Of a DNA stretch of 64,000 bases, positions 26,201 to 29,200 are shown piece after piece. Positions within the stretch are counted from its first letter, which is position 1. Each line of letters begins with the position of its first letter. Position numbers: made by a program. The stretch lies in assembly GCF_003790525.1 (NCBI RefSeq), contig NZ_CP033635.1; one strand, 5' to 3'. Source of the DNA: Escherichia coli (GTDB lineage Bacteria; Pseudomonadota; Gammaproteobacteria; Enterobacterales; Enterobacteriaceae).

Positions 26201-29200
26201 GGACTTTCGCCATCAACTTCTCCCGCCCGGCAGGTCAGGTGATTGCACAGTACTATGAATTCCTGCGCCTTGGCCGTGAAGGCTATACCAAAGTACAGAA
26301 CGCTTCCTACCAGGTTGCTGCCTATCTGGCGGATGAAATCGCCAAACTGGGGCCGTATGAGTTCATCTGTACCGGTCGCCCGGACGAAGGCATCCCGGCG
26401 GTTTGCTTCAAACTGAAAGATGGTGAAGACCCGGGATACACCCTCTACGACCTCTCTGAACGTCTGCGCCTGCGCGGCTGGCAGGTTCCGGCCTTCACTC
26501 TCGGCGGTGAAGCCACTGACATCGTGGTGATGCGCATTATGTGTCGTCGCGGCTTCGAAATGGACTTTGCTGAACTGTTGCTGGAAGACTACAAAGCCTC
26601 CCTGAAATATCTCAGCGATCACCCGAAACTGCAGGGTATTGCCCAGCAGAACAGCTTTAAACATACCTGATAACATAACGTTGTAAAAACCGAATGCCCA
26701 ACCTTTAAAAAACAGTTGGGCATTCGGTTGCTTATTAATCGCAATAATATATTGGCTGTCTATTCATCGTGTTGATAAGATATATGTTATATGAATGTTT
26801 ATTCAATGTAACGGATATTCTTAATATCACTACAAGAGATTATTTGCTTACTATTAATTTCACTGCGTTCTTAAACACGCCTTTTGTATTATAAATCCAG
26901 TCATCCTGCCCGTAGATTATCATCCTGTTTTCCCGCGTCGTTTAAATTTATTTATCAATCAATTTGACTTAAGAGGGCGGCGTGCTACATTAATAAACAG
27001 TAATATGTTTATGTAATATTAAGTCAACTATGCAACCACTACATGGTAATTGTCTAATTGCGTACGCAAGACATAAATATATTCTCACCATGGTTAATGG
27101 TGAATATCGCTATTTTAATGGCGGTGATCTGGTTTTTGCGGATGCAAGCCAAATTCAAGTGGATAAGTGTGTTGAGAATTTCGTATTAGTTTCAAGAGAC
27201 ACGCTTTCATTATTTCTCCCGATGCTCAAGGAGGAGGCATTAAAACTTCATGCACATAAAAAAGTTCCTTCATTACTCGTTCATCACTGTACCAGAGATA
27301 TTCCTGTTTTTCAGGAAGTTGCGCAACTATCGCAGAATAAGAATCTTCGCTATGCAGAAATGCTACGTAAAAGGGCATTAATCTTTGCGTTGTTATCTGT
27401 TTTTCTTGAGGATACGCAGTTTATACCGTTACTTCTGAACGTGTTGCAACCGAATATGCGAACACGAGTTTGTACGGTCATCAATAATAATATCGCCCAT
27501 GAGTGGACATTAGCCCGAATTGCTAGCGAATTGTTGATGAGTCCAAGCCTGTTAAAGAAAAAATTGCGCGAAGAAGGTACGTCATATTCACAGTTGCTTA
27601 CTGAGTGTAGGATGCAGCGTGCTTTACAACTTATTGTTATATATGGGGTTTCAATTAAGCGAGTTGCAGTATCCTGTGGATATCACAGCGTGTCGTATTT
27701 CATTTACGTTTTTCGAAATTATTATGGGATGACGCCCACAGAGTATCAGGAGCGATCGGCGCAGGAATTACCGAACTGTGGCCCGGCGGCAAGTATAGCT
27801 GCGCAAGGGAATTTTTACGGCACTGACCGTTCTGCGGAAGGAATAAGATTATAGAGTTTTACTCAGACATAAAAAAAACCCGGCATAGGGGACCGGGAAG
27901 AGGATAGTCTGCCGTCTCCAGACTAATAAACCGTTATAACACTCCCTGTTGGCACGGGAAACTTTGTGCTCTCAGTAAGTTAAATATAACTTTTACTGGA
28001 AATAAGATCAGCCATTTTTTTATAAACATAAGCTATACGCTGTGCGAAAATATATTCGTGTTGCATTTACTTATTGTCAATTAACTGTTATGCAAAACTA
28101 CTTTGTGGATAAATTTTGGTCCTACCAAATCTGGCAGTTTTTGCGCTAAGAAACAGTCTGGCATCATTTCATTAGTATACTGAAATTGAAATAATCGCAG
28201 TAATGAAATATAAGGGATAGTCATGACTCATGTCTGCTCGGTGATCCTCGTTCGTCGTTCATTCGATATTTATCATGAACAGCAAAAAATATCGTTGCAT
28301 AACGAGAGTATCCTGCTGCTGGATAAAAATTTGGCAGACGATTTTGCGTTTTGTTCACCGGATACGCGACGACTGGATATCGATGAGCTGACAGTTTGCC
28401 ATTACTTACAAAATATTCGTCAGATACCACGCAATTTAGGGTTACATAGCAAAGACCGTCTGTTAATTAACCAGTCACCCCCCATGCCGCTGGTGACGGC
28501 GATTTTTGATAGTTTCAATGACCCCCGGGTCAATTCGCCGATACTGAGCAAAATGCTCTACCTTTCCTGTTTATCAATGTTTTCTCATAAGAAAGAACTG
28601 ATCCCCTTACTTTTCAATAGTATCAGTACTGTTTCAGGAAAAGTTGAACGCCTTATTAGCTTTGATATCGCCAAACGTTGGTATCTGCGCGATATCGCAG
28701 AAAGAATGTATACCAGCGAGAGTCTCATCAAAAAAAAGTTGCAGGATGAAAATACCTGTTTCAGTAAAATATTACTCGCCTCCAGGATGTCGATGGCCAG
28801 ACGATTACTCGAGTTACGTCAAATTCCTCTGCATACTATTGCGGAAAAATGTGGATATAGCAGTACGTCGTACTTTATAAACACATTTCGACAATATTAT
28901 GGTGTAACGCCACATCAGTTTGCGCAACATTCGCCAGGTACCTTTTCCTGACATATTTTGCATTTGAATATTGGTCAGGATCTCACACCTGCTTCATGTG
29001 AAACTCTTCCCTGATGATTTCTGCCGGGCTACCGGCTAATTCTCTTTCGCAGTTTGCCAGGCGGTATAGGTATTTTCAGGAGGAAAAGACTCGGCATGTT
29101 TGGGATTATTAAGCTGACAATTCATACGATTACGGGAATGTGGGTCAGTATTGTGCTGTTCAAATTGATGACGAATGGCTGGAGTGGTTTCTACTTTCAG

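What the first reader, a model, noticed from the sequence alone, without database searches (positions are those of the whole stretch)
27871..27976. GadY sRNA antisense to the gadX 3' end
A minus-strand intrinsic terminator (stem cccgg/ccggg followed by U8) lies directly after the gadX stop, and the preceding minus-strand sequence fits GadY. It is often missed in annotation and it controls gadX-gadW mRNA processing.
Basis: partly seen in the sequence, partly recalled or inferred. Interest (0 to 1): 0.3.

Follow-up and report, generated by a model that had tools for sequence, protein, structure and literature searches.

The report
Known sRNA gene gadY, confirmed
This is the well-studied E. coli small RNA gene gadY, identical in sequence to the laboratory-strain copy and sitting opposite the tail of the gadX acid-resistance message; it is real but ordinary, and notable only because automatic genome annotation leaves it unlabelled.

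Summary
The observation and the interpretation both hold. Rfam's GadY model (RF00122) matches window 27979..27866 on the minus strand. The match is full length (1-114/114), scores 150 bits against a gathering score of 45, and has E = 8e-32.

It has the same 106-nt length as that record's annotation and the same 16-nt gap to the gadX stop codon. The minus-strand terminator is present: a 6-pair stem at 27897..27879 followed by T8 at 27878..27871.

The K-12 promoter region is identical out to position -84. GadY lies inside a 261-bp tract (27800-28060) with no differences from K-12, while gadX differs by 6.1% and gadW by 2.9%. The 106 nt are at least 99% identical in 5412 of 5426 complete E. coli genomes.

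"Often missed in annotation" is also borne out. No feature lies under the match in 30 of 30 sampled RefSeq records, nor in strain SMS-3-5, which is identical to the window over 25986-29486.

One correction: GadY is antisense to the gadX 3' UTR, that is, the gadX-gadW intergenic RNA. It does not overlap the gadX coding sequence.

Verdict: already known, low interest.

The parts
27871..27976 (-). gadY, full-length small RNA (106 nt as annotated in MG1655; 105 nt as published). 5' end is A at 27976; 3' end lies in the U8 tract.
   Evidence: Rfam RF00122, 150 bits, E = 8e-32, model 1-114/114. 106/106 identical to K-12 b4452.
27930..27976 (-). GadY 5' hairpin (GadY nt 1-47), containing one GGA at nt 32
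   Evidence: The minimum-free-energy fold matches the Rfam consensus structure line. GGA positions.
27905..27925 (-). GadY middle hairpin (GadY nt 52-72; stem UAGUCUG/CAGACUA), with a GGA at the stem-loop junction (nt 58)
27871..27897 (-). Intrinsic terminator of gadY: stem-loop 27897..27879 (6 pairs, 5 G-C, loop 7) plus U8 at 27878..27871
   Evidence: Terminator scan, fold, Rfam structure.
27983..27988 (-). gadY promoter -10 hexamer TATATT (-12 to -7 relative to A27976)
   Evidence: Read directly from the sequence. Identical to K-12. Assigned by position, not tested experimentally here.
28006..28015 (-). Weak -35 (CTGATC, 28011..28006, 3 of 6 matches, 17-nt spacer) overlapped by the 8-bp AppY motif ATGGCTGA (28015..28008)
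   Evidence: Pattern search. PMC10057817 reports motif ATGSCWGM overlapping the gadY -35. The motif alone is uninformative: 35 matches in the window against about 23 expected.
27855..27976 (+). gadX 3' UTR / start of the gadX-gadW intergenic RNA. 27871-27976 is the stretch perfectly complementary to GadY, i.e. its cis target.
   Evidence: gadX ORF ends at 27854. No plus-strand terminator-like site in 27500-28400. The plus-strand hairpin is followed by AAGAGGAU, not a U tract.
27030..27854 (+). gadX (AraC-family acid-resistance activator), 274 aa
   Evidence: ORF list. RefSeq annotation of identical or near-identical strains. 93.9% nt identity to K-12, 17 aa differences.
28223..28951 (+). gadW (AraC-family regulator), 242 aa, the downstream partner in the gadX-gadW co-transcript
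   Evidence: 97.1% nt identity to K-12.
27800..28060 (.). 261-bp tract with zero differences from K-12. It covers the last 55 nt of gadX, the spacer, gadY and its promoter out to -84.
   Evidence: Alignment A2 and per-segment counts.

Best explanation
The element is gadY, the cis-encoded antisense small RNA of the E. coli acid fitness island. In this strain it is identical to the copy characterised in K-12.

Mechanism:
1. Transcription starts at A27976 on the minus strand. The promoter has a good -10 (TATATT) and a weak -35. In K-12 it depends on stationary-phase or acid signals and on activators.
2. Transcription ends at the intrinsic terminator at 27897..27871.
3. Because gadY is encoded opposite the gadX 3' UTR, GadY is perfectly complementary to that part of the gadX and gadX-gadW transcripts.
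4. Pairing creates a double-stranded RNA that is cleaved, with RNase III participating. This separates gadX from gadW and raises the level of stable gadX message.
5. More GadX turns up the glutamate-dependent acid-resistance genes (gadA, gadBC, gadE).
6. The terminator hairpin plus U8 tail is the usual Hfq-binding module. GadY is also reported to act in trans, by titrating CsrA and by pairing with sdiA.

Shown here: identity, position, strand, terminator, promoter sequence and species-wide conservation.
Inferred from K-12 work: expression, pairing-dependent cleavage and the physiological effect in this strain.
For: - Rfam GadY, full length, 150 bits against a gathering score of 45, E = 8.3e-32.
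- 106/106 identity to MG1655 gadY b4452, with the same 16-nt spacing to the gadX stop.
- Minus-strand terminator at 27897..27871. The three-hairpin fold equals the Rfam consensus.
- Synteny gadA-gadX-gadW-mdtF.
- Promoter region identical to K-12 through -84, including the AppY motif at the -35.
- At least 99% identity in 5412 of 5426 complete E. coli genomes, while the 551-bp surroundings are mostly 95-99% identical.
- No plus-strand terminator between gadX and gadW, so read-through that supplies the target RNA is plausible.
Against: There is nothing substantive against it.

- Fold energy is no better than shuffled sequence (z = -0.73), so structure alone would not have identified the element.
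- The sigma-70 consensus scan does not call the gadY promoter, because the -35 matches only 3 of 6 positions. That fits an activator- or sigma-S-dependent promoter but proves nothing.
- No expression data exist here for this strain.
- The primary papers (Opdyke 2004 and 2011, Tramonti 2008) are not held in the library. Mechanistic statements therefore rest on secondary summaries. One of these (PMC10783499) is internally inconsistent, naming RNase E in its text and RNase III in its figure legend.
Confidence: 0.95

Rival explanations
1. The hairpin is mainly the transcription terminator of gadX, or a bidirectional terminator. On this view the adjoining sequence is just 3' UTR, with no independent small RNA gene.
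For: The hairpin lies 24 nt after the gadX stop and also forms in the plus-strand RNA.
Against: - On the plus strand the hairpin is preceded by A8 and followed by AAGAGGAU, with no U tract. The scan finds a terminator on the minus strand only.
- The full 114-position GadY model matches, not just the hairpin.
- K-12 has a curated, experimentally based gadY gene at the same place.
Confidence: 0.02
2. GadY is made, but its main job in the cell is in trans: competing for or titrating Hfq and CsrA, and pairing with mRNAs such as sdiA. The cis-antisense effect on gadX-gadW would then be secondary.
For: - The literature reports CsrA titration leading to pgaABCD-dependent biofilm, and pairing with sdiA.
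- GadY carries two GGA motifs, one at a hairpin stem-loop junction, and a U8 tail typical of Hfq binders.
Against: - The trans effects were seen largely on overproduction.
- The cis effect on gadX is the original finding and is repeatedly cited.
- The two roles are not mutually exclusive, so this is a question of emphasis rather than of identity.
Confidence: 0.1
3. The sequence is retained but transcriptionally silent in this non-K-12 strain, for example because upstream regulators differ. Here GadX differs from K-12 at 17 of 274 residues.
For: GadX and GadW, reported regulators of the gadY-gadW divergent promoters (title of Tramonti 2008, cited), are diverged from K-12. No expression data are available.
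Against: The promoter is identical to K-12 through -84. The RNA is invariant across 5412 genomes of all phylogroups, which argues for continued selection on function.
Confidence: 0.03

Closest known systems
gadY (b4452, formerly IS183) of E. coli K-12 MG1655; Rfam RF00122
   Same: Everything testable by sequence is the same: 106/106 nt, strand, 16-nt distance to the gadX stop, terminator, promoter to -84, and flanking genes.
   Different: Only the host background differs. The window is identical over 25986-29486 to strain SMS-3-5, which carries the chu haem-uptake cluster inside the acid fitness island. Its GadX differs from K-12 GadX at 17 residues. The gene is not annotated in that strain's RefSeq record.
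Other cis-antisense RNAs whose duplex with the sense mRNA is cut by RNase III (e.g. AsflhD/flhD in E. coli)
   Same: The principle is the same: an RNA encoded on the opposite strand, perfect complementarity, and a double-stranded RNA substrate for RNase III (paper titles and abstracts listed).
   Different: GadY pairs with a 3' UTR or intercistronic region and raises target mRNA levels. From the AsflhD abstract alone the direction of its effect on flhD was not checked here.
Hfq-dependent trans-acting sRNAs with a terminator hairpin and U-rich tail
   Same: GadY has a terminator hairpin and a U8 tail, is reported to bind Hfq, and has a reported trans target, sdiA.
   Different: GadY's best-known target is encoded on the opposite strand at the same locus, so pairing is perfect and long rather than short and imperfect.

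Membership tests
GadY sRNA (Rfam RF00122) | Match to the family covariance model at or above the curated gathering score | tested here: met
   150 bits against a gathering score of 45, E = 8.3e-32, model positions 1-114 of 114, not truncated.
GadY sRNA (Rfam RF00122) | Sequence identity to the experimentally characterised K-12 gene | tested here: met
   106/106 identical to NC_000913.3 3664864-3664969.
GadY sRNA (Rfam RF00122) | Encoded between gadX and gadW on the opposite strand, overlapping the gadX 3' UTR | tested here: met
   gadX 27030-27854 (+), gadY 27976-27871 (-), gadW 28223-28951 (+). The location description is in PMC11300174.
GadY sRNA (Rfam RF00122) | Its own Rho-independent terminator with a U tract | tested here: met
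   Stem 27897..27879 plus T8. The fold agrees.
GadY sRNA (Rfam RF00122) | Its own promoter, with expression in stationary phase or at low pH | not testable with these tools
   The promoter sequence is identical to K-12 through -84 and contains -10 TATATT and the AppY motif. Expression itself cannot be measured here.
GadY sRNA (Rfam RF00122) | [quoted passage not shown] | not testable with these tools
   Known only from K-12 experiments as cited. The RNA and its complementary target are identical to K-12.
Bidirectional intrinsic terminator (considered as an alternative reading of the hairpin) | A U tract following the hairpin on both strands | tested here: not met
   The minus strand has U8. 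The plus strand has A8 before the hairpin and AAGAGGAU after it. The scan calls the minus strand only.

The most novel reading that the evidence does not exclude
The evidence does not exclude that the 261-bp tract 27800-28060 carries more overlapping function than GadY alone. The tract has no differences from K-12 amid flanks that diverge by 3-6%, and its GadY core is near-invariant in 5412 genomes. One possibility is a constrained processing or structural signal in the gadX 3' UTR on the plus strand. Another is that the last 55 nt of gadX and the 16-nt spacer are constrained as part of a longer antisense interaction or read-through product. On the flank divergence of 71 differences in 1554 nt, a neutral 261-bp stretch with none has a rough binomial probability of about 5e-6 (my arithmetic). 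Even so, GadY, its promoter and the reported GadX/GadW and AppY binding sites may already account for the whole tract.
Probability: 0.12. Interest if true: 0.25.

Novelty: already known. Interest (0 to 1): 0.07.

Why it matters
Scientifically this adds nothing new. GadY has been characterised since 2004, and this copy is identical to the reference.

The practical value is in annotation. The RefSeq records sampled here, including the strain identical to the window over the 3.5 kb compared, leave gadY unlabelled. Anyone analysing acid-resistance regulation, transcriptomes or intergenic mutations in non-K-12 strains from those records would see an empty gadX-gadW spacer.

The species-wide near-invariance of the RNA, next to a fairly variable gadX, is a clean example of a non-coding element being more conserved than its protein-coding neighbours.

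Tried and rejected
- Primary papers. I tried to read Opdyke 2004 and Opdyke 2011 by DOI and by PMC id. Neither is held, so mechanistic statements rely on secondary summaries.
- Scripts. Two scripts failed because locus L002 is not exported to the script machine. I worked around this through alignment A2.
- Fold energy as evidence. Rejected: z = -0.73, and 42 of 200 shuffles fold as well.
- Consensus promoter scan. It does not call the gadY promoter. The -10 and -35 were placed by eye and by identity with K-12.
- AppY 8-mer as independent evidence. Rejected as uninformative: 35 matches in the window against about 23 expected. Only its position, identical to K-12, counts.
- Strain AR_0013 as the source of the window. 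It is 100% identical over 27700-28250, but an ungapped comparison over the first 50 kb fails, and gadA sits 9 nt off. SMS-3-5 is identical over 25986-29486, and at 100% reported identity over 50001-64000, where the match spans 14002 bases of the record against 14000 of the window.
- Small ORFs on the GadY strand. The only ones of at least 20 aa that overlap (27934..28029 and 27980..28066, minus strand) start upstream of the GadY 5' end, so they cannot be translated from GadY.
- Search of other genera for diverged GadY homologues. Not run. It would have tested covariation in the three hairpins, but the cost of a whole-collection scan is not justified for a known element.

Full report
**What is in the sequence.** The plus strand reads ...ggaataagattaTAG (gadX stop, ending at 27854), then agttttactcagacat, A8, CCCGGCATAGGGGACCGGG, aagagg.... 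On the minus strand this is the hairpin CCCGGU-CCCCUAU-GCCGGG at 27897..27879, with 6 pairs (5 of them G-C) and a loop of 7. U8 follows at 27878..27871. It is the only terminator-like site the scan finds in 27500-28400, and it is called on the minus strand only. The U tract ends 16 nt from the gadX stop.

**Identity.** A gathering-threshold scan of the whole window against Rfam 15 gives one GadY (RF00122) match at 27979..27866 on the minus strand. It scores 150 bits against a gathering score of 45, with E = 8.3e-32. It covers all 114 model positions, and every aligned base equals the model consensus.

The curated K-12 MG1655 record annotates gadY (b4452, 'small regulatory RNA GadY') at 3664864-3664969. 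That is 106 nt, opposite to and 16 nt from gadX. Direct alignment shows the window's 27871-27976 is 106/106 identical to it.

The published full-length species is 105 nt, with processed forms of 90 and 59 nt (PMC5686845, citing Opdyke 2004). The one-nucleotide difference lies in the U tract.

**Structure.** The minimum-free-energy fold of the 106 nt has three hairpins: GadY nt 1-47, 52-72 and 80-98. These are the same three helices as the Rfam consensus. The energy is no better than that of shuffled sequence (z = -0.73). Structure prediction alone would not have flagged this element. Because the RNA does not vary within E. coli, I have no covariation evidence for the helices.

**Context.**
- The ORF map gives gadA (ORF ending at 26670), gadX 27030-27854 (+), gadW 28223-28951 (+) and mdtF 29314-32427 (-). 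RefSeq annotations of matching strains agree.
- The window is identical to E. coli SMS-3-5 (NC_010498.1) over 25986-29486 with no mismatches. Over 50001-64000 the reported identity is 100%, with the match spanning 14002 bases of the record.
- No plus-strand terminator lies between gadX and gadW. The plus-strand version of the hairpin is followed by AAGAGGAU rather than a U tract. Read-through from gadX into gadW, which supplies GadY's target, is therefore plausible. The hairpin is not a bidirectional terminator.

**Promoter.** Upstream of A27976 the minus strand reads ...AAAAAAATGGCTGATCTTATTTCCAGTAAAAGTTATATTTAACTT|ACTGAG.
- This gives a -10 of TATATT (27988..27983), a 17-nt spacer and a weak -35 of CTGATC (28011..28006, 3 of 6 matches).
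- The consensus scan does not call this promoter because of the poor -35.
- The 8-bp AppY motif ATGSCWGM is reported to overlap the gadY -35 in K-12 (PMC10057817). It is present as ATGGCTGA at 28015..28008.
- As a pattern the motif is too short to mean anything: 35 matches in the window against about 23 expected. Its position, however, is identical to K-12, because the whole region from the gadY 5' end to -84 is identical.

**Conservation.**

| Segment, compared with K-12 | Differences | Identity |
|---|---|---|
| gadX CDS | 50 of 825 | 93.9% |
| gadX stop to gadY spacer | 0 of 16 | 100% |
| gadY | 0 of 106 | 100% |
| gadY promoter, -1 to -84 | 0 of 84 | 100% |
| gadW CDS | 21 of 729 | 97.1% |

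- GadX has 17 amino-acid changes, six of them at residues 246-257.
- The difference-free tract runs from 27800 to 28060 (261 bp).
- Across 5426 complete E. coli genomes, 5412 carry the 106 nt, all at 99% identity or more.
- A 551-bp query spanning the same place is 95-99% identical in 4960 records and at least 99% identical in only 438.
- GadY is thus more conserved than the protein-coding sequence around it, as expected for a functional RNA whose complement is also functional.

**How it works.** This part comes from the literature and was not tested here.
- GadY binds Hfq. It lies between gadX and gadW on the opposite strand (PMC11300174).
- It stabilises gadX mRNA by pairing with its 3' UTR (PMC10057817, citing Opdyke 2004).
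- Higher GadX then activates the glutamate-dependent acid-resistance genes.
- Reported trans roles include CsrA titration affecting pgaABCD and biofilm, and pairing with sdiA.
- The two GGA motifs at GadY nt 32 and 58 fit CsrA binding, but that link is my inference.
- One secondary source is inconsistent about the nuclease, naming RNase E in its text and RNase III in its legend. I follow the title of the primary paper.

**Annotation.** All 30 records sampled across the ranking have 'none' under the match, including a K-12 MG1655 re-sequencing record. AR_0013 and SMS-3-5 show only gadX and gadW. The curated NC_000913.3 record is the only one I looked at that annotates it.

**Verdict.** The element is already known and is identical to the reference copy. 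Interest is low.

Noticed in passing
window 33759-33830 (-): Rfam ES205 sRNA (RF02754), 106.5 bits against a gathering score of 86, full length, ending in a terminator hairpin plus U8. It lies 117 nt downstream of the gadE stop (gadE is at 33947-34474, minus strand, in the AR_0013 map), so it looks like a gadE 3'-UTR-derived sRNA. From memory this may be the RNA called GadF; I did not check. In AR_0013 a 'frameshifted hypothetical protein' pseudogene is annotated on the opposite strand across it (33669-33997), which is probably a spurious call.
   Followed up: no
window 53681-53763 (-) and 53914-53997 (-): Two Rfam AgrB-family hits (85.4 and 108.1 bits; gathering score 40) between arsR and dinQ. 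These are presumably the agrA/agrB antisense RNAs of the dinQ type I toxin locus. dinQ is annotated in SMS-3-5 at about window 54273-54359 (+). The two RNAs are not annotated there.
   Followed up: partly
window 43501-43532 (+); chu cluster about 37636-46588: The shuA/chuA 5'-UTR thermoregulator (RF02597) scores 60.1 bits, just above its gathering score of 58, and ends at the chuA start (43529). The whole chu haem-uptake cluster sits inside the acid fitness island, between yhiD and dctR-slp.
   Followed up: no
window 27765-27800 (+), gadX codons 246-257: Six of the 17 GadX amino-acid differences from K-12 cluster in the C-terminal tail (R246E, S248P, R250C, D251G, S252P, V257A). They stop abruptly at 27799, where the 261-bp tract identical to K-12 begins. 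This could be a recombination boundary or a sharp change in constraint.
   Followed up: partly
window 35073-35080 (-): The same AppY 8-mer as at the gadY promoter (ATGGCTGA) occurs about 600 nt upstream of gadE. This fits the report that the identical motif overlaps the -35 of the gadE P3 promoter. I did not map it against the published promoter coordinates.
   Followed up: no
whole window: The window matches E. coli SMS-3-5 (NC_010498.1) with 0 mismatches over 25986-29486 and at 100% reported identity over 50001-64000. Strain AR_0013 is identical around gadY but is offset by 9 nt at gadA.
   Followed up: partly
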